This document shows, piece after piece, positions 9,522 through 18,861 of a DNA stretch of 64,000 nt; the first letter of the stretch is position 1, and the number at the start of each line of letters is the position of its first letter. The notes beneath the pieces are model-generated. The model searched no databases. It was not told the origin of the DNA and worked only from the letters and a program-made list of their open reading frames with translations. A program made the position numbers and the translations under genes. The stretch is taken from NCBI GenBank assembly GCA_016784025.1, contig JADHVL010000017.1:4892-68891 (forward strand). The letters run 5' to 3'. The DNA comes from Fidelibacterota bacterium. Its GTDB lineage: Bacteria > Fidelibacterota > UBA8477 > JABMPR01.

Positions 9522-10306
9522 CCACACTAAAAACTCATATCGAGTTTGATACTAATCTGGCTCGTTGGCTCAATGTTCAGGAAGTGGCCCTTGTTCGGGA
9601 GGACTTGCTGCCAAATGGTGGGGGCAAAAAAAGACGAGCGTTGGCACAATTTGTTACAGAGCTTGAGGATGTGAAGCACATCCACTTACTTTCCTATGCA
9701 GGATCACATACGGCCTATACCCTGTCAAGTCTCCTACCTGATGTGATGATTCATCTCTATGGGACTCACTATGGGGGCGGACTTTACGAAAAGGAGATGA
9801 CCTCCATGCTCGATTCCCGCGCGAACATTATTCAAAAGGTATCCTCCTCGTGGACGATGAGTTTGGCGTTTAACCGGCAAAGAAGGGAATCCAGACCTGG
9901 CCACCATTTTATGCGCATCGGGGGTAGTCTTGGATTTGATTTTTCTACCCAATCTGCCGTGGAAGAAACGATCAGGACTGTTGGCGAAGATTTTCATCAT
10001 GTAGTGGCTGTGGCTTCAGGTGACCTTCTGACAAGTGTAGCCAGACAAACCAACCAGGTAACAGGTGTATTAACACAACCCCTGGGCATAAGAATTCTTA
10101 AATATATCAGTCTAAAGAAATCCTCAGGTATTTGGAAATCAGGACTAAACAAGCGTATCAAGACAATGAGAGCTGTACGCGAAATAACGGGTCAAACCTG
10201 GGATCCAATTTTTATGGGTACATTATTCAGTTACTTGATAAAAAAAAAGAAGCTGCCTCCCAAACTATGTATTTGGATTACCTGTCCAGCAGGAATTGAC
10301 TGGTAA
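9518..10306 (+). CDS. PLP-dependent enzyme, ACC deaminase / D-cysteine desulfhydrase-like (short)
   Basis: LPNGGGKKRRAL resembles the GGNKxRKL PLP-lysine motif of this fold-type II family. At 262 aa it is shorter than canonical members. ATGA start/stop overlap with the upstream gene. Confidence 0.45.
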   Translation: MTTLKTHIEFDTNLARWLNVQEVALVREDLLPNGGGKKRRALAQFVTELEDVKHIHLLSYAGSHTAYTLSSLLPDVMIHLYGTHYGGGLYEKEMTSMLDSRANIIQKVSSSWTMSLAFNRQRRESRPGHHFMRIGGSLGFDFSTQSAVEETIRTVGEDFHHVVAVASGDLLTSVARQTNQVTGVLTQPLGIRILKYISLKKSSGIWKSGLNKRIKTMRAVREITGQTWDPIFMGTLFSYLIKKKKLPPKLCIWITCPAGIDW

Positions 10307-10492
10307 AGATTCTATTCAAAAAAAGAGGCTCATTTTGATTTATGAACAAGGAACGCTGATTGAAGATTTAAGAAATTGAATAAACTTCGGTATTCAAAAA
10401 TCGTTAATCCTTGTTCACTATTCGATATACAAAGGAGACTACCTCAGGTTCTGAGACAGCCTCCTTTTATAACTCTTAGCGCTTGAATTTTT

Positions 10493-11107
10493 CTATTCAG
10501 TTGCCTCAGTCTCTTCCATGACTTCCTCAGTTTCCATGGTTTCATCTACTTCTTCTGAGGGTGGTGGGGGAGGATTTCTCAATAATTCAATTTCAGCATT
10601 GATCATAGCGATCATCTTTTTAATGTCAGCATCAGAAACCTGACCATCGACGCTAAATATTACTTTTCCAGTTGGATCAAACACAACCATGTTGTTTGAA
10701 TCATCTGCCAGACCCCATTTTTCGCCAACCAGATTGTCATTGTCGCGTACATAGACTGTACTGGGGTAGTCCTTCTGCTTTCCAGAGAGAATCAGGTTAA
10801 TAGCAAAATTTGGTTTCCAGGTTGCAGCCATATTAATCAGGGCTACTGAACCATAGACATCCTTCGGATAGTCTTCGGCTTTTAAAGCTTCTGTAGCTGC
10901 ATTGTTGGTTTCGCTCTCATCGGGATCTGCATGGACAACCACCCAGACTTTACCAACTAATTCGCTACTGCTCCATGCTGTATCGTCAACTCTACCACCA
11001 GCATCACCAGCGAGTTCTAAGAGGGGAGCATTCTGACCAACGGGGAGACCTGCAGACAAACCAACGCTTAACAAAACAAACAAAATACTAAATGATACTT
11101 TTTTCAT
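10493..11107 (-). CDS. YtfJ-family periplasmic thioredoxin-fold-like protein with Pro/acidic C-terminal tail
   Basis: Signal peptide MKKVSFSILFVLLSVGLSAG. The pattern W.S.EL.GKV.V..H ... YP.S ... VV.D..GKV is collinear with E. coli YtfJ as I recall it. The ATG at 11107 has an AGGAAAG RBS; the track ORF extends to 11146. Confidence 0.55.
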   Translation of the reverse strand: MKKVSFSILFVLLSVGLSAGLPVGQNAPLLELAGDAGGRVDDTAWSSSELVGKVWVVVHADPDESETNNAATEALKAEDYPKDVYGSVALINMAATWKPNFAINLILSGKQKDYPSTVYVRDNDNLVGEKWGLADDSNNMVVFDPTGKVIFSVDGQVSDADIKKMIAMINAEIELLRNPPPPPSEEVDETMETEEVMEETEATE

Positions 11108-11307
11108 ACGCTTTCCTTTTCTTTCTAATTGATCTGAGAAATGCATCTCTCAAATACCTGCTATTAAAAAACCATCTGTAATTTTATTTCATCAGTAGAA
11201 AAATACTGATAGAGTAAATCAATTAGACCTTTATACGATGATTAACGCGTGCTCATATTTTAGGGATGATTGAAAGCTGTGCAAGTATTATCCAATCTAC
11301 AAAAGAC

Positions 11308-11589
11308 TTAGGGGAGAACTTTGACACCCTTCCAGAAGGCGACATGATCTCTGATGGGTTCAGCAGCATCTGATGGGTCGGGGTAGTACCAGGCGGCATC
11401 GCGATTATCCATTCCCTCTACTTCAATATGGTAATAGCTGGCAGTTCCTTTCCAATGGCAGATGGTATGGGTTTGACTATCTCTCAAATATGCTGGGTTT
11501 ACAGAATTAACGGGAAAATAGTGATTCCCCTCAATGACTACGGTTTTGTCACTTTCAGCAATAATTTTATCATTCCAAAGGGCTTTCAT
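11308..11589 (-). CDS. DUF427 domain protein
   Basis: 93 aa. NHYFP and CHWKGTASYY motifs are typical of DUF427. Lies 11 nt downstream of egtD on the same strand. Confidence 0.75.
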   Translation of the reverse strand: MKALWNDKIIAESDKTVVIEGNHYFPVNSVNPAYLRDSQTHTICHWKGTASYYHIEVEGMDNRDAAWYYPDPSDAAEPIRDHVAFWKGVKVLP

Positions 11590-11600
11590 TTGTTGCTCCT

Positions 11601-12623
11601 TTATAGGGCGCGCAACTCAGGCGCGTTATTTTGGGTTTTAAAACAATTCAGGCTGAACCAGCCCTTATCATCCAACCATTGCTGCTCCAGAAAAAAGCCA
11701 GAGGCTTCCGCTAAAGCATTTATTTCATTGTGTGAATACTTATATGAATATTCAGTTAAAATCTTCTCATCCTTTTTAAATGAGATACTCACACCAATAT
11801 TTTTTATTTCAACTTCTTGATCAATATTGCTCACCAGATACATTTCAATGCGTCCTTCTTCTACATTGTAAATGGCCTGGTGGTGGAAATTCTTGCGCTC
11901 AAAAGTACCACCCAATTCGTTGTTGAGGCGATCCAGTAGATTCAAGTTAAAATCTGCAGTGACGCCTCTGGCATCATCATAGGCTGGCTCCAGAATCTCT
12001 GGCCCCTTGCGGAGATCAATACCCAAAAGCAAACTATCCTGAGCGCTAATATTTTTGCGGACTTCTCTTAAAAATTGGGTGGCTTCAACTCGGGTCAAAT
12101 TCCCAATACTGGAGCCTAACCACATAATGCAATTTGAGGTGGTGCTATTTTTTAAAATATACTCCATACCAAATTCATAGCGGCCAGCTACGGCTTCTAA
12201 CTGAAGCTGTGGATAACGATGGTTAAGATCATTCACTGTGTCCGTTAGAATTTCAGCCGATACATCGATAGGCGAATATTGTGTAGTTCCAAAGCGTGCC
12301 ATGGCAGCTTCCAACAAAATTCTAGTTTTGGTTGAGCTACCACTCCCTAATTCCACGAGGTGGGTGTTAAGAGGGAGCTTTGAAATGATTTCTGCAGCTG
12401 ATCGCTGAAGAATTTCAGTTTCTTTTCGTGTGAGATAATACTCTTCCAGTTCACAAATTTCTTCAAACAACTGGGATCCTCGTTCATCATAGAAATAGAC
12501 AGAAGACAAACGTTTCGGTGTATTGTTTAACCCTTTGAGTACGTCCCTGGCGAAAGCCATGGTAGGGCTTTCAAATTGATCCTGAGCCTTAATAATCTGG
12601 GGTGAGGAAAGTGTTTCAGTCAT
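11601..12623 (-). CDS. egtD: L-histidine N-alpha-methyltransferase EgtD (hercynine synthase)
   Basis: 340 aa. DVLKGLNNTPKRLSSVYFYDERGSQLFEEICELEEYYLTRKE and ELGSGSSTKTR match the EgtD family signature. Confidence 0.9.
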   Translation of the reverse strand: MTETLSSPQIIKAQDQFESPTMAFARDVLKGLNNTPKRLSSVYFYDERGSQLFEEICELEEYYLTRKETEILQRSAAEIISKLPLNTHLVELGSGSSTKTRILLEAAMARFGTTQYSPIDVSAEILTDTVNDLNHRYPQLQLEAVAGRYEFGMEYILKNSTTSNCIMWLGSSIGNLTRVEATQFLREVRKNISAQDSLLLGIDLRKGPEILEPAYDDARGVTADFNLNLLDRLNNELGGTFERKNFHHQAIYNVEEGRIEMYLVSNIDQEVEIKNIGVSISFKKDEKILTEYSYKYSHNEINALAEASGFFLEQQWLDDKGWFSLNCFKTQNNAPELRAL

Positions 12624-14131
12624 GAGGTAGATTCCTGTTTCATTTGTAATCCAGGTGAGAGAAAAGTACGTTCAGCAAAATCAAAACTCCATTGAACGAG
12701 GAGCGCCAGAACAGCAGCCGGAATTGCACCTTCGAGAATAAGGCTGGTATCATCCAGTCTTATTCCAGTGAGTATGGGTTGGCCGTATCCGCCAGCACCA
12801 ATCAAAGCCCCCAAAGTTGCCGTACCAACATTAATAACAGCGGATGTTTTTATACCGGCTAGAATTGAACGAGCCGCCAGAGGAAGTTCGATTAATCTTA
12901 GTCGAGCAGCCGCTGGGAGACCAAGGGCTCGAGCTGATTCCTGAACATCTATTGGGAGTCCCGTTAAACCACTCAGGGTATTTCGTACGATGGGCAGCAG
13001 GCTATATAGAAATAAGGCTACAAGTGCAGGTGGCCCGCCGATGCCCAGCAGAGGAATCATAAATACCAGGAGTGCCAGTGAAGGTATGGTCTGGATAATA
13101 CCCACAATACTGAGAATAACCTGGCCCAGGGTTGCATTTCTGGCTCCCCAAATACCCAGGGGAATAGCCACCAGAATGGCTGCTCCCAGAGATAGACAAA
13201 CCAGAAATAAATGTTCTGATGTGGTGGTGATCAATCTGTCCAGTCTTGTTGAGACTTCAATCTTGGAGAGCGTGTTAAATTTGATATTCAAGAAACTCTG
13301 AGCCACTTCAGCTTCACTGAGACCCTCCAGCTTGACATCAGAATTCATCTTAATCATCTCAGTTTCAGAAATGATTCCCCCCAGCTGCGTCAGATGGGTT
13401 TGAACCTCTGGGACACGATCCTTGAGCTCTGTTCGATACAGTATTACCGCTCGGTAATCAGGGAAGTAGCTCTCATCATCTTTGAGAACATTTAATTGAT
13501 AATAGGCAATTTCAGAATCAGTGGAATAAAGATCAATCAGGTCAATGGAGCCTGCCTCCAACCCCTTGTATGCCAGATCATGATCCAAGCCGCGCACTGC
13601 AGTTTGGGGTAGTTGATAATGATCCCTGAGGCTGGGCCAGCCATCCTCTCGATCCATAAATTCATTGGTAAACCCAAATTTGAGCTCAGGATATTGGCGT
13701 AAATCGCTGATTTTCTCCAGCGAGAACCTTCTGGCTGTAGAAGGTGTGATCCCAAGGGCGTAGGTATTGTTAAAACCCAGGGGAGATGTCATGCTCACTC
13801 CATGCCGAGCAAGTGCCGCCTGGATGTCTGCATCCGATGATATCTCCTCCCCTTGAAGAATCTCGTATATAATCGTGCCAGTATAATCCGGGTAAATATC
13901 CAACTCTCCCTGGATCAGAGCCTTCCAGAGTAAACGTGTTCCACCCAGTTGATCCTTGTGAATAGCTGAAATATGGTTGTTTTGGAGATGTTGGGTAATG
14001 ACTTCACTCAAAATCACAGATTCTGTAAACTTCTTTGAACCGATTCGGATCTCTGAAGCAGTTTCTGCCTGTGCAGGATTGGCGATAAGAAGGCTCAGAA
14101 ACAGGTAGGAGTAAAAGATCAGAAGCTTCAT
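12620..14131 (-). CDS. Quaternary-amine ABC transporter, fused substrate-binding (N-terminal, OpuAC-type) and permease (C-terminal) protein
   Basis: 503 aa: a signal peptide, a betaine/choline/carnitine-type binding domain, then a five-to-six-TM BPD-type permease. 4-nt overlaps with both neighbours. Confidence 0.85.
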   Translation of the reverse strand: MKLLIFYSYLFLSLLIANPAQAETASEIRIGSKKFTESVILSEVITQHLQNNHISAIHKDQLGGTRLLWKALIQGELDIYPDYTGTIIYEILQGEEISSDADIQAALARHGVSMTSPLGFNNTYALGITPSTARRFSLEKISDLRQYPELKFGFTNEFMDREDGWPSLRDHYQLPQTAVRGLDHDLAYKGLEAGSIDLIDLYSTDSEIAYYQLNVLKDDESYFPDYRAVILYRTELKDRVPEVQTHLTQLGGIISETEMIKMNSDVKLEGLSEAEVAQSFLNIKFNTLSKIEVSTRLDRLITTTSEHLFLVCLSLGAAILVAIPLGIWGARNATLGQVILSIVGIIQTIPSLALLVFMIPLLGIGGPPALVALFLYSLLPIVRNTLSGLTGLPIDVQESARALGLPAAARLRLIELPLAARSILAGIKTSAVINVGTATLGALIGAGGYGQPILTGIRLDDTSLILEGAIPAAVLALLVQWSFDFAERTFLSPGLQMKQESTS

Positions 14132-14880
14132 TTGATCTGATCCTCTAACTGTTGCCAGGGTTTTCGCTGGGCATTGATAAATTCGGTAACAAAGGGATCT
14201 GCAGGGTGTGACGAAAGGTTTGAAAGGGTATCATATTGAAGCAAATATCCATCTTTCATTATCACAATCAAATCTGCCAGTGAGGCTGCTTCACCCATGT
14301 CGTGGGTCACCAGTACAACGGTTTTCCCGAGTTGGCTAAAAATAGTCTTCATTTCATCCTGCAAACTGACTCTATTGAGTGGATCCAGGGCTCCCAGGGG
14401 TTCATCCAGAAACAGAATCTGGGGATCCAACATGAGGGCGCGCATGAGGGCAACCCGTTGAACCTGACCGCCTGAAAGTTCAGAGGGGTAGCGTCCTAGG
14501 AGGTCTGGAGAAATATGGGTCAAATCACATAATTCAGCGATGCGTTGTTCTGTATTTTGGGGATCATGGTGTAAATAATCTGCCATAAGGCGCATGTTTT
14601 GAACAGCGGTCATATGAGGAAAGAGTCCCCCATCCTGGAGTACAAATCCCACCTGCTGACGTAATTTTTCAACGTTAGCCCTGGATAAGTCCTCTTGGAA
14701 AAGTGAGATATTGCCCGTTTCAGGCCACAACAAACCCACCATGAGCCTCAGTAAGGTTGATTTACCACATCCACTGGGTCCGATGAGAACAACGGTTTTC
14801 CCTTGAGGTATTTCAAGGGAAAGGTCATGAATGACCTCATTTCCGTTAAAGCTTTTACTTATATCCTTGAGTTGAATCAT
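14128..14880 (-). CDS. ABC transporter ATP-binding protein (OpuC/EgtV-like, no CBS tail)
   Basis: Walker A GPSGCGKST, signature LSGGQVQRV, Walker B ILFLDEP. 250 aa. Confidence 0.9.
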   Translation of the reverse strand: MIQLKDISKSFNGNEVIHDLSLEIPQGKTVVLIGPSGCGKSTLLRLMVGLLWPETGNISLFQEDLSRANVEKLRQQVGFVLQDGGLFPHMTAVQNMRLMADYLHHDPQNTEQRIAELCDLTHISPDLLGRYPSELSGGQVQRVALMRALMLDPQILFLDEPLGALDPLNRVSLQDEMKTIFSQLGKTVVLVTHDMGEAASLADLIVIMKDGYLLQYDTLSNLSSHPADPFVTEFINAQRKPWQQLEDQIK

Positions 14881-14885
14881 GTGGA

Positions 14886-15743
14886 TTAGTGGCTGTCTCC
14901 ACTGATGGCTTCAGCATGTTGAATGGTCTGGCGTAGAAATGTTTCCACCATTGATTTTTGTGCTCCAGGTGCATCTTTCTTGACTATTTGATCCATTGTT
15001 AAGACCATGCCAGTCCAACCCTCGGTGTGCCATTTTCCAAAAGTCAGGGGCAGCTCTTTAATTTGATCTTCGGAGGGGTAGGGCCAGACATTTACATAAT
15101 AATATGGAGCTGTATAGCTTGTGTCACCGGGCGACATACCTATGCCAATAGATTTTTCCTCACCAAGACTGAGTAGAATGGCCATATCAAAGTGATGGGG
15201 CCAGGTCAATACGCTTCCTGCTCTACCATCTTTTTTGGAAATTGCCTCAATCAGCGGATAGGCATTTGAATAGGCAGAGGATAGTTGGCCAAATGCTGCC
15301 TGATCCGAGGTATCAAATGGGGTGGACCAGTGATCAGGATAGTCAGGCAATTCAAAATGTCTTTCCATGGTGAATACAGCCTTTGGGAGACCATGGTCTT
15401 CCAGAAAGAATTGTAAATCGGAAGCAACCTGTTTCAGGGTTGATCCCTTTAGTTTCAGCTCTAGTAATAATTCATGATTATGAATGACTTGACAAGTGAG
15501 GTTCTGGGGCGTTAGACCGATCTGAAATTTGAGGTCAGGTCCAAAGGGATGACTCAAAAGCATGTTGGCCTGGGCATCCCAGAGTAGCGATGTATGGCTA
15601 TCATCAGGTTTGTGTTCTACAAAGGATATACCTGCAGCTGTCAGGAGTTGAACGGCCTGGTGCAGTTGTCCACGAGCTTCTAATAGTCGATCATCTCCAA
15701 CTTGTATGAGTTGTTTCCAGTTCGTTTCTTTTATGCTCACCAT
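14886..15743 (-). CDS. Hypothetical protein (no family recognised) inside the egt operon
   Basis: 285-aa ORF with no competing frame. Lies 5 nt upstream of the ABC ATPase gene and 46 nt downstream of egtB on the same strand. Confidence 0.6.
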   Translation of the reverse strand: MVSIKETNWKQLIQVGDDRLLEARGQLHQAVQLLTAAGISFVEHKPDDSHTSLLWDAQANMLLSHPFGPDLKFQIGLTPQNLTCQVIHNHELLLELKLKGSTLKQVASDLQFFLEDHGLPKAVFTMERHFELPDYPDHWSTPFDTSDQAAFGQLSSAYSNAYPLIEAISKKDGRAGSVLTWPHHFDMAILLSLGEEKSIGIGMSPGDTSYTAPYYYVNVWPYPSEDQIKELPLTFGKWHTEGWTGMVLTMDQIVKKDAPGAQKSMVETFLRQTIQHAEAISGDSH

Positions 15744-15789
15744 GACTCCACTTTTTATTTATTCAGTAAGGTACTTTGCAACAGGTCGG

Positions 15790-17070
15790 CTAAACGTCTC
15801 GGGCGAGACGAATTCCCATGAATTGCCAACGTGAATGGGGATAAAAGAAATTCCGGTAGGTGGATCGCAGGTGATCGCTACTGCTGATGCATGAACCTCC
15901 CCGTAAAACCATCTGACTGGACATGAATTTTCCATTGTATTCACCCACAGCACCACTGGCAGATTTAAATCCAGGATAGGGAGTGTAGGGACTGCGGGTC
16001 CACTCCCAGACATCGCCAAACATCTGACTCAATTGTGATGCCGCAGCATGCTCTGCTGGTGCAGGATGAAAGTGTTGTGTCTGGACGAAGTTACCATCAA
16101 TCCTCAGCTTCTGCGCGGCAATCTCCCACTCATGCTCGCTGGGAAGACGCGCTCCACACCAATTTGCGTAGGCATCGGCTTCATAATAACTGAGATGTGT
16201 GACAGGATTTTCAAGATTCAATGGGACCAGACCCGAAAGGGTAAACTCAAACCACTGATTTTCCTGGTGAAGCCAATAGAGGGGTGCAATCCAACCTTCT
16301 TTGTTGATTAAAGCCCATCCGTCTGACAACCAGAGAGCTGGCTGATTGTATCCTCCATCTTTAATAAATGATAGATACTCGCGATTGGTTACCAGGCGAT
16401 TACCTAATTCAAAGGGGTGGAGGAAAACAGCATGTCGCGGTGTTTCATTATCAAAACTAAACTCACTACCAGAGAATCCATGTTGAACCTGTCCACCCTC
16501 AAAAGAGGTCCAGTTGAGCTCTTGATAATTATCAGTACTCTTTGCCGGTTCAGCATCCACATAGGCGGGGTAAATCGGGTTTTGAAAAAAGACATGCTTG
16601 ATATCGGTGAGCATCAACTCCTGATGCTGCTGTTCGTGTTGTAGCCCCAAAACAAAAATTGATTCGAGTTCAGAGATTTTATGCTCATCCAAGGTCTCAA
16701 AAAGACGGATTATTTCATCGTCAACATGATGACGATAAGCAAACACTTCGTCAACGGTAGGACGGCTCAAGTGGCCTCTTTCGTTACGGGGGAATTGCTC
16801 TCCAACGGCATTGTAGTATGAGTTAAACAGATAATTATAAAGCTCATTGGGAGTCTGATAATCCGCAAGCATGGGTTTGAGAATAAAGATCTCAAAAAAC
16901 CAGGCAGTATGTGCAAGATGCCAGCGTGTGGGGCTCACATCCGGCATGGATTGAACCACAAAATCTTCCTTTTCCAGTGGTTCACAAAGCTGTTCAGTAA
17001 ATCTTCGAACCGCTGTGTATTTTTCAAGAAGCTGTGTTTTTAAATCCTGTATTTCCCCTGAATTGGTCAT
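15790..17070 (-). CDS. egtB: Ergothioneine biosynthesis sulfoxide synthase EgtB
   Basis: 426 aa. N-terminal DinB-like domain (RWHLAHTAWFFE, LQHEQQHQELM) and C-terminal FGE-sulfatase-type domain (GDVWEWT, LRGGS). No OvoA-type methyltransferase extension. Confidence 0.9.
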   Translation of the reverse strand: MTNSGEIQDLKTQLLEKYTAVRRFTEQLCEPLEKEDFVVQSMPDVSPTRWHLAHTAWFFEIFILKPMLADYQTPNELYNYLFNSYYNAVGEQFPRNERGHLSRPTVDEVFAYRHHVDDEIIRLFETLDEHKISELESIFVLGLQHEQQHQELMLTDIKHVFFQNPIYPAYVDAEPAKSTDNYQELNWTSFEGGQVQHGFSGSEFSFDNETPRHAVFLHPFELGNRLVTNREYLSFIKDGGYNQPALWLSDGWALINKEGWIAPLYWLHQENQWFEFTLSGLVPLNLENPVTHLSYYEADAYANWCGARLPSEHEWEIAAQKLRIDGNFVQTQHFHPAPAEHAAASQLSQMFGDVWEWTRSPYTPYPGFKSASGAVGEYNGKFMSSQMVLRGGSCISSSDHLRSTYRNFFYPHSRWQFMGIRLARDV

Positions 17071-17132
17071 AACTACTTCAAAGCCTTAAGTGTTCTTTTT
17101 TCTTATACGATTGATTGGTGGTTGAACTTAAC

Positions 17133-17167
17133 AAAAGCACCCTGAATTAGTATTAAAAACAGGGTGC
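17133..17167 (-). terminator. Candidate terminator after the YceI gene
   Basis: On the minus strand: GCACCCTG-(15 nt)-CAGGGTGC followed by TTTT. The loop is large, so only moderate support. Confidence 0.4.
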
Positions 17168-17206
17168 CATCGAACTTACAGAGGAAAAATGCAGCTAAAT
17201 CTTTTG

Positions 17207-17743
17207 CTAGAAACTGACATCCAGGTTCAGATTAACCTTATCCAAAACTTTCATGGGTCCCATCCCAACCAACGGGAGATCAAAATCAGTAGGTACAATG
17301 AGAAAACTTCCTGTGGCGTTCCATTTTCCTGCTGACTGCTTCAAATCCAGCATCAGTGTATAGGGTTTGGTAATTCCATTAACTTGAAGATCTCCAGCCA
17401 GGGAAACATCACCAGCCATTAACTCAGGTAAATTCACGGTGGATTTAAAGGTGATCATAGGATGCTTTTTGCGATCTAAAACTGACAAGCGCATGTGAGA
17501 GTCCCGCATGCGGTTCCCCGTATGAAGATCATTCACAGAGACCTCTACGCTGACTGTCCGATTTCCGCTTGTGTCAGCGTCACTTACAGAGACTGTAAAA
17601 ATCCGAGCTTCTACAGGAAAGTCATGTGTTCGGGCATGCCCCAAACCTTCAAAACTACCGTTTGCTTCAGTGATGGTGATAGTGGCCCAGCTCAACAGTG
17701 GAAGAATGGTGATAGTCATGGCAATCATATTTTTAAGTTTCAA
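17207..17743 (-). CDS. YceI-family (polyisoprenoid-binding) periplasmic protein
   Basis: 178 aa with a signal peptide. VNGITKPYTLMLDL resembles the YceI HG.TKPV.L motif. Confidence 0.8.
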   Translation of the reverse strand: MKLKNMIAMTITILPLLSWATITITEANGSFEGLGHARTHDFPVEARIFTVSVSDADTSGNRTVSVEVSVNDLHTGNRMRDSHMRLSVLDRKKHPMITFKSTVNLPELMAGDVSLAGDLQVNGITKPYTLMLDLKQSAGKWNATGSFLIVPTDFDLPLVGMGPMKVLDKVNLNLDVSF

Positions 17744-17901
17744 AATTAACTCCTTTCAACGAGTTTAAAATTCTGCTGACAGGGTAACTTTTATCATGAC
17801 TAGCTTCTGTCTTGAGTACGACAAAGTCGCCATAATGAACCAGGTCTTGTTGCGTAAAGCAACCTACCTTGAGCTATCATCTAATATGCTCACAATAGTT
17901 A

Positions 17902-18861
17902 TTGCATGTGTTCCGCGGAGAAATAGTTTTTACAAGCTCGCATAATTGGAAGGGATCAACATTGATTCAATGGCTTAACAGGGCATGCTTACTGTTTTTG
18001 GGACTTGTCATGGTGGCCTGTGAAGATGCCACCATTGATTATACCTCAGATATCGTAGGTATCTATATTGTGGAAACTGCCGTTGTGGATGGAATCACTA
18101 CCAGTTATGGTACTTTACCCATTGAAGAAGCCTGGATTATTGATATCACCACTGACAATTTATTGTCCTATGTGAATGAAGTAAATTTATGTGATTCAAC
18201 CTTCATCCTGGATGCCAGGGTCATTGATGTGGTAACTGATACATCAATTGTTTTTACAGATGATACGGACCTGTACTATAGTGTAGAAGATGGGAAACTT
18301 ACGCTCTTTAATGATGACGATGTGATTGTGCTGGTTGGATATGGATCTGATTTCCCGCCCCCAGCATGGTCAGACCCTCAATTCCTAACCAATGACATAT
18401 ATGAACCAGACAGCAGCTTGAGTCTGGCAACCAGAATATCTGCTGCCGGTGCTATTCAAACTCACTATTCGGCTGTCTGTGATGATGAAGATTTTTTTAT
18501 TTTTGAAGCTCTGAGTGGCACTGTATATATCATTGAAGCTGAGGCCGCCGCAGGTACTGGTATTGATTTAACATTATCTCTGTATTCTTCTGACAGCCTT
18601 GTAGCCTATAATGATGATCAGACAACCTCCAATATTGATCCAAAATTGGAGTGGTCCTGTCTGGTCAGTGGTGATTACTATTTTATTGTAAAAAAATATT
18701 GGGATTATCTGGATCCAGGTAATTCAGAAGATGATAAGAAGGGTGCTTACACTGTCAGTGTTGATGTCACAAAAGGATTACTGAAGACACCACCTCCAGA
18801 GATTATCAAGCTTCATCGACCTGTTCAAAAGACGCGACTATTCCACAAATTTTTCGACTAG
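17902..18861 (+). CDS. Secreted lipoprotein with pre-peptidase C-terminal (PPC)-like domain
   Basis: Lipobox LGLVMVAC. The C-terminal half has the PPC pattern DEDFFIFEALSGTVYIIEAE...LTLSLYSSD...GDYYFIV. The real start is probably the TTG at 17962, preceded by GGAAGGGA. Confidence 0.55.
   Translation: MHVFRGEIVFTSSHNWKGSTLIQWLNRACLLFLGLVMVACEDATIDYTSDIVGIYIVETAVVDGITTSYGTLPIEEAWIIDITTDNLLSYVNEVNLCDSTFILDARVIDVVTDTSIVFTDDTDLYYSVEDGKLTLFNDDDVIVLVGYGSDFPPPAWSDPQFLTNDIYEPDSSLSLATRISAAGAIQTHYSAVCDDEDFFIFEALSGTVYIIEAEAAAGTGIDLTLSLYSSDSLVAYNDDQTTSNIDPKLEWSCLVSGDYYFIVKKYWDYLDPGNSEDDKKGAYTVSVDVTKGLLKTPPPEIIKLHRPVQKTRLFHKFFD

What the first reader, a model, noticed from the sequence alone, without database searches (positions are those of the whole stretch)
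11308..17070. Ergothioneine biosynthetic operon (egtB ... egtD) that encloses a betaine-type ABC importer
Seen: egtB (15790..17070) and egtD (11601..12623) are clear. Three genes sit between them on the same strand with 4-nt overlaps or gaps of 5-46 nt:
- an unknown 285-aa ORF;
- an ABC ATPase without a CBS tail;
- a fused OpuAC-type binding domain plus permease, here with the binding domain N-terminal.
A DUF427 gene follows egtD by 11 nt. No egtA, egtC or egtE is present in the window.

Established: EgtD and EgtB make hercynine and its sulfoxide. The dedicated ergothioneine importers EgtUV (H. pylori, S. pneumoniae) are OpuC/ProU-like systems with a fused permease-binding protein, and they were described in non-producers.

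Inference: a producer-encoded, translationally coupled EgtUV-like system could recapture ergothioneine or hercynine, or import a trimethylammonium precursor. This biosynthesis-plus-uptake arrangement, with the reversed domain order, deserves a look.
Basis: partly seen in the sequence, partly recalled or inferred. Interest (0 to 1): 0.6.

Follow-up and report, generated by a model that had tools for sequence, protein, structure and literature searches.

The report
Ergothioneine operon with built-in betaine importer
A marine Marinimicrobia bacterium keeps its two ergothioneine-making genes in one operon with a betaine-type uptake pump. The same pump family travels with the hercynine-making gene egtD in many phyla, so it probably salvages histidine betaines, yet its binding pocket is not that of the known ergothioneine importer EgtU.

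Summary
On the minus strand lie egtB, a 285-aa ORF, a 250-aa ABC ATPase without CBS domains, a 503-aa binding-domain/permease fusion, egtD and DUF427, with junctions of 46, 5, -4, -4 and 11 nt.

- **Pathway:** EgtB is the cysteine-dependent type II enzyme. The assembly (86% complete) has no EgtA, EgtC or EgtE over cut-off.
- **Pump family:** it belongs to a very conserved clade with relatives in at least 597 species. The N-terminal binding domain is the norm there.
- **Link to egtD:** 22 of 80 loci have egtD within 10 kb (0.4 expected). It is followed by EgtB-II, the selenoneine synthase SenA, the anaerobic synthase MES, or nothing.
- **Co-occurrence:** betaine-type ABC pumps matching the clade profile and EgtD co-occur in 35 of 37 pump-bearing Marinisomatota genomes. 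Clade pumps co-occur with EgtD in 16 of 19 Gammaproteobacteria.
- **Pocket:** it is invariant and AfProX-like (F35, Y83, F120) plus a clade-specific His184. It lacks the EgtU thione determinants.

Best reading (about 0.45): an importer of hercynine-class betaines for salvage or recapture by producers. A generic glycine-betaine importer remains a serious rival.

A 2026 paper tabulates the co-localisation without study. This scan has found the same pairing before on at least 13 other genomes. The substrate is untested.

The parts
17125..17172 (-). Hairpin plus U-tract after yceI. It is the likely terminator that sets the upstream edge of the egt operon.
   Evidence: A 9-bp G+C-rich stem followed by UUUUGUU, -18.2 kcal/mol, z = -3.55 against shuffles. 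The sequence was read.
15790..17070 (-). egtB, a type II (cysteine-dependent) hercynine sulfoxide synthase.
   Evidence: TIGR03440 584 bits; SenA 349 bits, below its cut-off of 420. The best solved relatives are Chloracidobacterium thermophilum EgtB 6qki/6o6l/8qf6 at 501 bits, against 145 bits for mycobacterial type I 4x8b. The FNSYY motif is kept.
14886..15743 (-). ORF285, a distant DUF5996-like protein of unknown function, inserted between egtB and the ATPase gene.
   Evidence: No family at E<=0.001. DUF5996 gives E=0.0019 and 17.8 bits, below the cut-off of 25. 440 homologues were found, many with precomputed PF19459. The AF2 model has pLDDT 95 and no PDB fold match at E<=0.001. Conserved residues include R24, H28, DDSH47-50, WPHHFD181-186, PGD205-207 and W238-H239.
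14128..14880 (-). ABC ATPase subunit, 250 aa, without a CBS regulatory module.
   Evidence: PF00005 at residues 18-162. It is closest to the ProV/PotA/CysA-type importer ATPases, and every NCBIfam hit is below its cut-off. It overlaps the next gene by 4 nt.
12620..14131 (-). Fused substrate-binding domain and permease, 503 aa. Signal peptide at about aa 1-22, subcluster F-III betaine-binding domain at about aa 25-285 (13277-14059), and MetI-type transmembrane domain at about aa 296-490 (12662-13246).
   Evidence: OpuAC at 27-281 and BPD_transp_1 at 322-485. In the AF2 model the binding domain has pLDDT about 90 and matches Lmo1422, HpEgtU and SpEgtU at TM 0.78-0.89. Pocket residues: K33, F35, E37, G64, T65, Y83, T86, F120, N122, Y124, E157, R161, H184, Y202, Y226.
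11601..12623 (-). egtD, the L-histidine N-alpha-methyltransferase that makes hercynine.
   Evidence: TIGR03438 equivalog at 367 bits (cut-off 290.9) and PF10017 at 2e-110. It is the only copy in the genome. Its start overlaps the transporter stop by 4 nt.
11308..11589 (-). DUF427 protein, 93 aa, the last gene of the string.
   Evidence: PF04248 at 6e-33. The only solved relative is 3djm, of unknown function. DUF427 recurs beside the transporter in L018, L031, L036, L058 and L076 and beside 5.7% of EgtB-type genes in PMC13674229.

Best explanation
The six genes form one transcription unit that starts after the yceI terminator.

**Biosynthesis.** EgtD trimethylates histidine to hercynine. The type II EgtB couples hercynine to free cysteine with O2. 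An unlinked housekeeping C-S lyase would finish ergothioneine.

**Uptake.** The ATPase and the binding-domain/permease fusion would assemble as a type I ABC importer, with two ATPase subunits and two fusion subunits. The binding domain is exported by an N-terminal signal peptide and tethered to a five-helix MetI-type core.

**Binding.** The domain holds a trimethylammonium group in a four-tyrosine box (Y83, Y124, Y202, Y226, floor N122). It holds an alpha-carboxylate with K33, R161 and T86.

**Proposed substrate.** This clade tracks EgtD whichever sulfur- or selenium-inserting enzyme follows, and its pocket does not change with that enzyme. I therefore propose that its substrate is the histidine-betaine core: hercynine itself, and possibly ergothioneine and selenoneine with lower selectivity. 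The pump would then let producers salvage environmental or leaked hercynine-class betaines, including hercynine formed when ergothioneine is oxidised, and so save three SAM per molecule.

**Shown:** gene identities, architecture, conservation of linkage, co-occurrence and pocket residues.

**Inferred:** substrate, import direction (from the type I architecture), co-transcription and physiological role.
For: **1. Linkage**
- The same string is kept in Marinimicrobia relatives down to 48% ORF285 identity.
- Outside the phylum, 22 of 80 species have EgtD within 10 kb of a 53-63% identical transporter, mostly within 2 kb and in varied gene orders. About 0.4 are expected; P is about 5e-32, though related genomes are not independent.
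- On the transporter tree the adjacency is scattered. It needs 16 changes, at least 7 of them forced by well-supported branches.

**2. Common denominator**
- The neighbouring enzyme is EgtB-II in 13 loci, SenA (435-495 bits, cut-off 420) in L015, L016, L071 and L077, MES in L011, L058 and L087, and EgtD alone in L026, L043 and L049.
- The commonest 18-site pocket string, which is the window's own, occurs in all of these classes. H184 is invariant in 80 of 80 loci.

**3. Phylogenetic profile**
- In 201 Marinisomatota genomes: 35 have both, 2 only a transporter matching the clade profile at E<=1e-20 (any architecture), 5 only EgtD and 159 neither. For clade-level matches (>=650 bits) the counts are 21, 1, 19 and 160.
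- In 250 Gammaproteobacteria, 16 of 19 transporter genomes have EgtD against 72 of 231 others, and the two genes are mostly unlinked there.
- All 10 further transporter genomes tested have EgtD somewhere.

**4. No other recurrent neighbour.** A Pfam tally of 105 flanking genes at 57 loci without egt genes shows no repeated family.

**5. Other pumps in the same place.** Other Marinisomatota families carry different F-III betaine ABC systems beside egtD, in TMD-SBD order in L091 and L092.

**6. Closest solved relatives.** By sequence and by fold these are the three validated EgtU binding domains.

**7. No CBS osmosensing module on the ATPase**.
Against: - At the 16 mapped sites the pocket equals that of AfProX, a glycine-betaine/proline-betaine binder, except for K34, N122 and H184. 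Nothing in it positively demands an imidazole.
- E157 and T65, which contact the ergothioneine ring in SpEgtU, are also present in AfProX.
- SpEgtU binds hercynine 10^4-fold worse than ergothioneine. Relatedness to EgtU therefore does not predict hercynine binding.
- This is the only OpuAC-type system in the assembly, and no BCCT carrier was found. It could simply be the cell's betaine importer.
- Most EgtD-bearing Gammaproteobacteria lack the pump (72 of 88).
- About 70% of clade loci are not next to egt genes.
- No clear case of a genome with the pump and a sulfur-inserting enzyme but no EgtD was found. G211 is a 1.5-Mb assembly.
- No binding, transport or transcript data exist.
Confidence: 0.45

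Rival explanations
1. It is a generic compatible-solute importer for glycine betaine, proline betaine or similar. It is merely co-regulated with ergothioneine synthesis, for example because both serve stress protection or because ergothioneine and hercynine themselves act as betaine osmolytes.
For: - The pocket matches AfProX at 13 of 16 mapped sites. These include the three positions (F35, Y83, F120) that Zhang et al. use to separate glycine-betaine binders from EgtU.
- It is the only OpuAC-type system in the assembly, and no BCCT carrier was found.
- The TMD-SBD pump beside egtD in L091 has AfProX as its best solved hit, at 197 bits.
- PMC13674229 files these genes under housekeeping transporters.
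Against: - A general osmoprotectant pump should not be confined to EgtD-bearing genomes: 35 of 37, 16 of 19 and 10 of 10.
- It should not stay next to egtD in more than ten phyla with shuffled gene order.
- There are no glycine-betaine catabolic or osmoregulatory neighbours.
- The ATPase has no CBS module.
- An invariant clade-specific His184 replaces the Pro found in both AfProX and EgtU.
Confidence: 0.3
2. It is a true functional equivalent of EgtUV: a high-affinity, thione-specific ergothioneine importer that producers use to recapture secreted ergothioneine.
For: - The validated EgtU domains are the closest solved relatives by sequence and fold.
- N122, the cage floor, is shared with EgtU and not with AfProX.
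- G64 equals the HpEgtU residue G327.
- Pocket determinants depend on context: the Hp-like double mutant of SpEgtU does not regain HpEgtU affinity.
- Recapture by producers fits the co-occurrence data.
Against: - G244 is F, F293 is Y, Y337 is F, P401 is H and I243 is variable.
- G244F alone lowers ergothioneine affinity about 100-fold and F293Y about 10-fold in SpEgtU.
- The same unchanged pocket accompanies SenA (selenoneine) clusters and EgtD-only clusters.
Confidence: 0.15
3. There is no functional link. The adjacency is inherited synteny within Marinimicrobia and coincidence elsewhere.
For: - Wider synteny is also conserved in the Marinimicrobia relatives: yceI, ytfJ and the Lgt operon.
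- About 70% of clade loci have no egt gene in reach.
Against: - 22 of 80 adjacencies are seen against 0.4 expected.
- The adjacencies are scattered over the tree and the phyla, in different gene orders.
- Co-occurrence holds even where the genes are unlinked.
Confidence: 0.03

Closest known systems
EgtUV / EgtU ergothioneine ABC importer (S. pneumoniae SPD_1642-1643, L. monocytogenes BilEB/Lmo1422, H. pylori EgtU; PDB 7TXK, 4Z7E, 8DP6)
   Same: - A two-gene ABC importer with the binding domain fused to the permease.
- A subcluster F-III binding fold; these are the best sequence hits (37% identity) and the best fold hits (TM 0.78-0.89).
- An aromatic cage with an Asn floor.
- A K/R/T carboxylate clamp.
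- E375 and T275 equivalents are kept.
   Different: - The domain order is SBD-TMD, not TMD-SBD.
- G244 is Phe, F293/Y337 reads Tyr/Phe, P401 is His and I243 is variable.
- It is found almost only in genomes that make hercynine, whereas EgtUV was described in non-producers.
- No binding data exist.
Archaeoglobus fulgidus ProX (PDB 1SW1/1SW2), a glycine-betaine/proline-betaine binding protein
   Same: A four-Tyr box, F15 and F107 equivalents, K13/T66/R149 carboxylate contacts and an E145 equivalent. It matches at 13 of 16 mapped pocket positions.
   Different: - Only 32% identical, and a lower score than EgtU (112 against 164 bits).
- D109 is Asn, P172 is His and P14 is Lys or variable.
- ProX is a free lipoprotein of an osmoprotectant system, not fused to a permease and not linked to egt genes.
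Producer-encoded recapture importers of compatible solutes (TeaABC for ectoine in Halomonas elongata, GgtABCD for glucosylglycerol in Synechocystis, OpuE for proline in B. subtilis; from my own knowledge)
   Same: The design logic is shared: a cell that synthesises a zwitterionic solute also encodes a high-affinity importer for it, to recover what leaks out.
   Different: They belong to different transporter families and carry different solutes. Recapture has not been shown here.
Two-gene egtB(type II)-egtD ergothioneine clusters (Chloracidobacterium thermophilum, Methylobacterium)
   Same: A cysteine-dependent EgtB (501 bits to CthEgtB) together with EgtD, with no EgtA or EgtC.
   Different: Here three genes (ORF285, ATPase, SBD-TMD) are inserted between egtB and egtD, and DUF427 follows.

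Membership tests
EgtU (ergothioneine-specific binding domain) | Subcluster F-III fold with an aromatic cage (F293, Y341, Y419, Y443) on an N339 floor | tested here: met
   Y83, Y124, Y202, Y226 and N122. The fold matches 4z7e, 8dp6 and 7txl at TM 0.78-0.89. The cage residue at position 293 is Tyr, not Phe.
EgtU (ergothioneine-specific binding domain) | Carboxylate clamp K242, R379, T296 | tested here: met
   K33, R161 and T86 are invariant in the clade.
EgtU (ergothioneine-specific binding domain) | Invariant G244, which makes room for the ordered water chain around the thione | tested here: not met
   F35 is found in the window and in 79 of 80 clade loci. G244F lowers ergothioneine affinity about 100-fold in SpEgtU.
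EgtU (ergothioneine-specific binding domain) | F-Y switch: F293 with Y337, where glycine-betaine binders have Y with F | tested here: not met
   Y83 with F120, the glycine-betaine-binder state. F293Y costs about 10-fold.
EgtU (ergothioneine-specific binding domain) | CH-S donors to the thione: I243 (Pro in Hp), T274 (Gly in Hp) and P401 | tested here: not met
   K34 (variable across the clade), G64 and H184 (invariant). Only G64 agrees, and it agrees with HpEgtU.
EgtU (ergothioneine-specific binding domain) | TMD-SBD fusion order | tested here: not met
   OpuAC at 27-281 precedes BPD_transp_1 at 322-485.
EgtU (ergothioneine-specific binding domain) | Tight, selective binding and uptake of L-ergothioneine | not testable with these tools
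   This needs ITC or uptake assays.
AfProX-type glycine-betaine/proline-betaine binding proteins | Four-Tyr box plus K13, T66, R149, with F15 and F107 | tested here: met
   All are present when aligned to the 1sw2 sequence obtained.
AfProX-type glycine-betaine/proline-betaine binding proteins | D109 and P172 environment; closest overall relationship to AfProX | tested here: not met
   N122 and H184 take those places. AfProX scores 112 bits against 164 for Lmo1422.
EgtB type II (cysteine-dependent sulfoxide synthase) | Closest to CthEgtB, with the adjacent Tyr-Tyr pair of the alternative active site; EgtB equivalog rather than SenA or OvoA | tested here: met
   501 bits to 6qki/6o6l/8qf6 against 145 to type I 4x8b. 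FNSYYNAVG aligns with FNSYYEAVG. TIGR03440 scores 584 (over 360) and SenA 349 (under 420).
EgtD (histidine N-alpha-methyltransferase) | TIGR03438 equivalog over its curated cut-off | tested here: met
   367 bits against 290.9. It is a single copy in the genome.
Type I ABC importer | MetI-type permease domain, a cognate ATPase and an extracytoplasmic binding domain | tested here: met
   BPD_transp_1, ABC_tran and OpuAC domains, plus an N-terminal signal peptide. The model shows long helices at residues 296-490.
DUF5996 (for ORF285) | Pfam PF19459 over the gathering score | tested here: inconclusive
   The window protein scores 17.8 bits against a cut-off of 25. Many homologues carry a precomputed PF19459 hit.

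The most novel reading that the evidence does not exclude
The clade is a dedicated hercynine importer that closes a salvage loop. When ergothioneine or selenoneine is destroyed by oxidants it leaves hercynine. The pump takes this up, or hercynine released by neighbours, and EgtB, MES or SenA re-charge it with sulfur or selenium. The invariant His184 and Phe35 would then read the bare imidazole C2 position. Hercynine would be a traded public good in marine and soil communities.
Probability: 0.25. Interest if true: 0.7.

Novelty: new variant of a known kind. Interest (0 to 1): 0.5.

Why it matters
Bacterial ergothioneine uptake is so far known only from non-producing, host-associated bacteria, through EgtUV. 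Here a separate, very conserved and widespread clade of betaine-type ABC importers is tied to hercynine-making genomes. These use aerobic, anaerobic and selenium routes.

If the substrate is hercynine or its thio and seleno derivatives, several things follow:
- Producers would be shown to salvage these costly betaines.
- A second molecular solution for recognising them would be defined.
- Annotation could separate these pumps from osmoprotectant systems.
- Strain engineers would gain a handle on product re-uptake in ergothioneine fermentations.

If the substrate is plain glycine betaine, the tight coupling to EgtD would itself need an explanation.

Tried and rejected
- **Promoter and terminator scan of 10300-18000:** counts were at the shuffle level and uninformative. 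Only the yceI hairpin stands out on folding. There is no convincing terminator after DUF427.
- **Fold comparison of the transporter model:** EgtU, choline, nicotine-sensor and glycine-betaine binders all match at E 1e-18 to 1e-21. Fold does not decide the ligand.
- **ORF285:** no PDB sequence hit and no fold hit. A distant homologue in Imperialibacter is not near egt genes. I therefore do not assign it the missing C-S lyase step.
- **Search for hercynine auxotrophs** (pump plus a sulfur-inserting enzyme, no EgtD): only G211, a 1.5-Mb assembly, fits, which is ambiguous. G345, G430, G031 and G160 show neither enzyme.
- **Neighbour tally at loci without egt genes:** no recurrent family and no betaine catabolism genes.
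- **Literature:** the Cell 2022 H. pylori EgtUV paper is not held. I could not map the HpEgtU residues at positions 244, 293, 337 and 401.
- **Rejected: exporter role.** The architecture, with a binding domain and a MetI-type permease, is that of importers.
- **Rejected: selenoneine cluster for this window.** SenA scores 349 bits, below its cut-off of 420.

Full report
**Observation**

On the minus strand lie:
- egtB, 15790-17070 (TIGR03440, 584 bits);
- a 285-aa ORF with no family, 14886-15743;
- a 250-aa ABC ATPase whose only transporter domain is ABC_tran, 14128-14880;
- a 503-aa protein with OpuAC at residues 27-281 followed by BPD_transp_1 at 322-485, 12620-14131;
- egtD, 11601-12623 (TIGR03438, 367 bits);
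- DUF427, 11308-11589.

The junctions are 46, 5, -4, -4 and 11 nt.

A 9-bp G+C-rich hairpin with a U-tract (-18.2 kcal/mol, z -3.55) follows the upstream yceI gene. The string therefore probably has its own promoter. No convincing terminator follows DUF427. The consensus promoter and terminator scan was at chance level.

**Organism and pathway**

Names attached to ORF285 homologues place the window in Candidatus Marinimicrobia, that is Marinisomatota.

EgtB is the type II, cysteine-dependent enzyme. It scores 501 bits against the Chloracidobacterium thermophilum EgtB structures and 145 bits against the mycobacterial type I enzyme, and it keeps the FNSYY motif. The SenA model stays below its cut-off.

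The assembly is 3.5 Mb and 86% complete. It has one EgtD and no EgtA, EgtC or EgtE over cut-off. This is the known two-enzyme route, and its C-S lyase step is left to an unlinked PLP enzyme.

**The transporter as a protein**

By sequence, the best solved relatives of the binding domain are as follows:
- Lmo1422/BilEB, 3e-47;
- S. pneumoniae EgtUC, about 1e-42;
- H. pylori EgtU, 2e-35;
- AfProX, 3e-31;
- OpuCC and OpuBC further down.

BLASTP gives 37% identity to Lmo1422, 37% to SpEgtU and 32% to AfProX.

An AlphaFold model has a binding domain with pLDDT about 90. Its best fold matches are the same three EgtU domains (TM 0.78-0.89). Choline, nicotine-sensor and glycine-betaine binders follow within two orders of magnitude of E-value, so fold does not decide the ligand.

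**Mapping the EgtU determinants**

Zhang et al. (bioRxiv 10.1101/2022.05.02.490363) define the ergothioneine site as follows:
- a cage of F293, Y341, Y419 and Y443 on N339;
- a carboxylate clamp of K242, R379 and T296;
- ring contacts E375 and T275;
- thione contacts I243, T274 and P401;
- an invariant G244 that makes room for a water chain;
- an F293/Y337 pair that is swapped to Y/F in glycine-betaine binders.

I aligned the window protein with the PDB sequences printed by the tools. Residues read in the order 242, 243, 244, 246, 274, 275, 293, 296, 337, 339, 341, 375, 379, 401, 419, 443:

| Protein | Residues |
|---|---|
| Window | K K F E G T Y T F N Y E R H Y Y |
| SpEgtU | K I G E T T F T Y N Y E R P Y Y |
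| AfProX | K P F E G T Y T F D Y E R P Y Y |

- The cage and the clamp are kept.
- The three positions said to separate EgtU from glycine-betaine binders are in the glycine-betaine state.
- P401 is replaced by His.
- In SpEgtU, G244F costs about 100-fold and F293Y about 10-fold in ergothioneine affinity.
- SpEgtU binds hercynine 10^4-fold worse than ergothioneine.

One caution applies. Legg et al. could not transplant the H. pylori pocket into SpEgtU. Residue rules in this family therefore depend on context.

**A large, uniform clade**

The word-index search returned 8000 hits. Proteins of about 500 aa with the same SBD-TMD order and about 60% identity occur in Scalindua, Kuenenia, Nitrospinaceae, Thermodesulfobacteriota, KSB1, Calditrichota, Poribacteria and others.

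Cultured carriers include Archangium, Myxococcus, Pyxidicoccus, Maioricimonas, Thiorhodococcus fuscus, Novilysobacter antarcticus and Rhodanobacter thiooxydans.

In 21 members spanning 58-88% identity, all the pocket residues listed above except position 34 and N122 (nearly invariant) are invariant. So is the motif G-L-D-H-D-L-A-Y around H184. In the 80 best loci H184 is invariant, and only position 34 and the N/D at 122 vary notably.

**Linkage to egt genes**

- Within Marinimicrobia the six-gene string is kept in contigs whose ORF285 is 79% and 48% identical. An extra SDR gene precedes egtB in the latter.
- Outside the phylum, three of the first four contexts I opened had an EgtD-type gene beside the pump. 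In Scalindua it is followed by a 1135-aa molybdopterin/aminotransferase-V protein. That is the architecture of the metallopterin-dependent ergothioneine synthase MES of PMC9516567.
- I ran a tblastn survey of the 80 species loci. It found EgtD within 10 kb in 22, mostly within 2 kb and on either side. L058 has MES, DUF427 and an EgtD fragment.
- With one EgtD per 4-Mb genome, about 0.4 such cases are expected.
- On a tree of the transporters the adjacent cases are scattered. They need 16 changes, at least 7 of them forced by well-supported branches.
- The immediate neighbours at the 57 loci without egt genes show no recurrent family.

**Which enzyme follows EgtD**

NCBIfam classifies the EgtB-like neighbours as follows:
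- true EgtB in L010 (595 bits) and L091 (423 bits);
- SenA, the selenoneine synthase, in L015, L016, L071 and L077 (435-495 bits, cut-off 420), and in L094.

L094 comes from another Marinisomatota family, and its pump is only 41% identical to the window's.

The commonest pocket string, which is the window's own, occurs beside EgtB-II, SenA, MES and EgtD alone. The one constant partner is EgtD, whose product is hercynine.

**Co-occurrence**

- In an even sample of 201 Marinisomatota genomes, 37 have a match to the transporter profile and 40 have EgtD. 35 have both, 2 have only the transporter (one of these is 69% complete) and 5 have only EgtD.
- Counting only clade-level matches (>=650 bits), 21 of 22 such genomes have EgtD.
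- The weaker matches are different F-III systems in TMD-SBD order. Some also lie beside egtD: L091 has egtD, ATPase and TMD-SBD with AfProX as its best PDB hit, and L092 is similar.
- In 250 Gammaproteobacteria, 16 of 19 transporter genomes have EgtD against 72 of 231 others. The genes there are mostly on different contigs or megabases apart.
- Ten further transporter genomes, chosen because egtD was not adjacent or only a fragment was, all have EgtD. Four of the five tested have EgtB and the fifth has MES.
- Related genomes are not independent, so the Fisher values (2e-31 and 7e-6) overstate the case. The direction is nonetheless consistent in two distant groups.

**Interpretation**

The pump is a type I ABC importer of a carboxylate-bearing trimethylammonium compound. 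That much follows from the domains and the pocket. What it carries is inferred.

A histidine-betaine substrate, with hercynine as the common denominator, best explains four things:
- confinement to EgtD genomes;
- repeated adjacency to egtD;
- indifference to the downstream chemistry (sulfur, selenium, aerobic or anaerobic);
- the absence of a CBS osmosensing module.

The generic glycine-betaine reading is kept alive by three points:
- the AfProX-like pocket;
- this being the only OpuAC-type system in the assembly;
- no BCCT carrier being found.

A strictly ergothioneine-specific, EgtU-like function is the least favoured of the three, because every thione determinant is changed.

I found no clear 'hercynine auxotroph', which would have favoured hercynine decisively.

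**Comparison with what is known**

- EgtUV was described in bacteria that cannot make ergothioneine.
- PMC13674229 (JACS 2026) lists the genes co-encoded with EgtB-type enzymes: EgtD 69.9%, OpuBA-type ATPase 13.6%, DUF427 5.7% and OpuBB/PBP2_AfProX_like permease 5.4%. It treats transporters as housekeeping genes. The co-localisation is thus on record but unexplained.
- The MES paper does not mention the pump.
- I found no paper on DUF427 or DUF5996 in this pathway.
- This scan has noted the same pairing on at least 13 other genomes, with the same partial verdict. One of those notes led me to the SenA check.

**Other genes in the string**

- ORF285 gives a very confident model (pLDDT 95) with no PDB fold match. 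It has a conserved His/Asp-rich set of residues. It is part of the operon only in Marinimicrobia, although homologues lie next to the pump in L050 and L054. A distant homologue elsewhere has unrelated neighbours. Its role is open.
- DUF427 recurs beside the pump in five other loci. It has only an uncharacterised solved relative, 3djm.

**Verdict**

- The system is a new variant of a known kind of transporter.
- It is tied to hercynine-making genomes, and its substrate is untested.

Noticed in passing
window 14886-15743 (-): ORF285 folds with very high confidence (pLDDT 95, pTM 0.92) into an alpha/beta fold with no PDB match. It carries conserved R24, H28, DDSH47-50, WPHHFD181-186, PGD205-207 and W238-H239, which looks like a metal or active site. 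Homologues lie next to the same transporter clade in L050 (4515-5357) and L054 (6225-7034).
   Followed up: partly
L091 5445-10896; L092 4151-12338: Other Marinisomatota families keep a different betaine ABC system beside egtD. It is in TMD-SBD (EgtU-like) order, and in L091 the binding domain is closest to AfProX. In L092 egtD is followed by a SufS-family cysteine desulfurase (556 bits).
   Followed up: partly
L094 2528-7791: A Marinisomatota genome (G064) has ATPase, SBD-TMD (41% identical to the window's), a 216-aa ORF, egtD and SenA. This is a selenoneine-type cluster with the same kind of pump, and its pocket also has His at the P401 position.
   Followed up: partly
L087 9078-17424: One locus carries the ATPase, SBD-TMD, an EgtB-II-like gene (47%), egtD and a MES-like gene (59%) in a row. 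Oxygen-dependent and anaerobic ergothioneine synthases sit in a single cluster.
   Followed up: no
L093 3840-6421; L096 3112-5648: These are TMD-SBD fusions in which the two lobes of the binding domain align in swapped order (query 153-281 before 27-147). That suggests a circularly permuted binding domain. They are paired with a longer, 323-aa ATPase and have no egt gene in reach.
   Followed up: no
L002 6040-6717; L003 393-1070: In the more distant Marinimicrobia relatives a short-chain dehydrogenase gene overlaps the start of egtB, so it has joined the operon.
   Followed up: no
whole assembly G000: No BCCT-family carrier was found, and there is only one OpuAC-type binding domain in the 86%-complete genome. 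That is sparse osmoprotectant uptake for a marine bacterium.
   Followed up: partly
G184:C1:447417-448847; G367:C1:1509180-1510640; G346:C724:480-1964: Three transporter matches in other genomes each contain a single in-frame TGA. They may be broken copies or sequencing errors.
   Followed up: no
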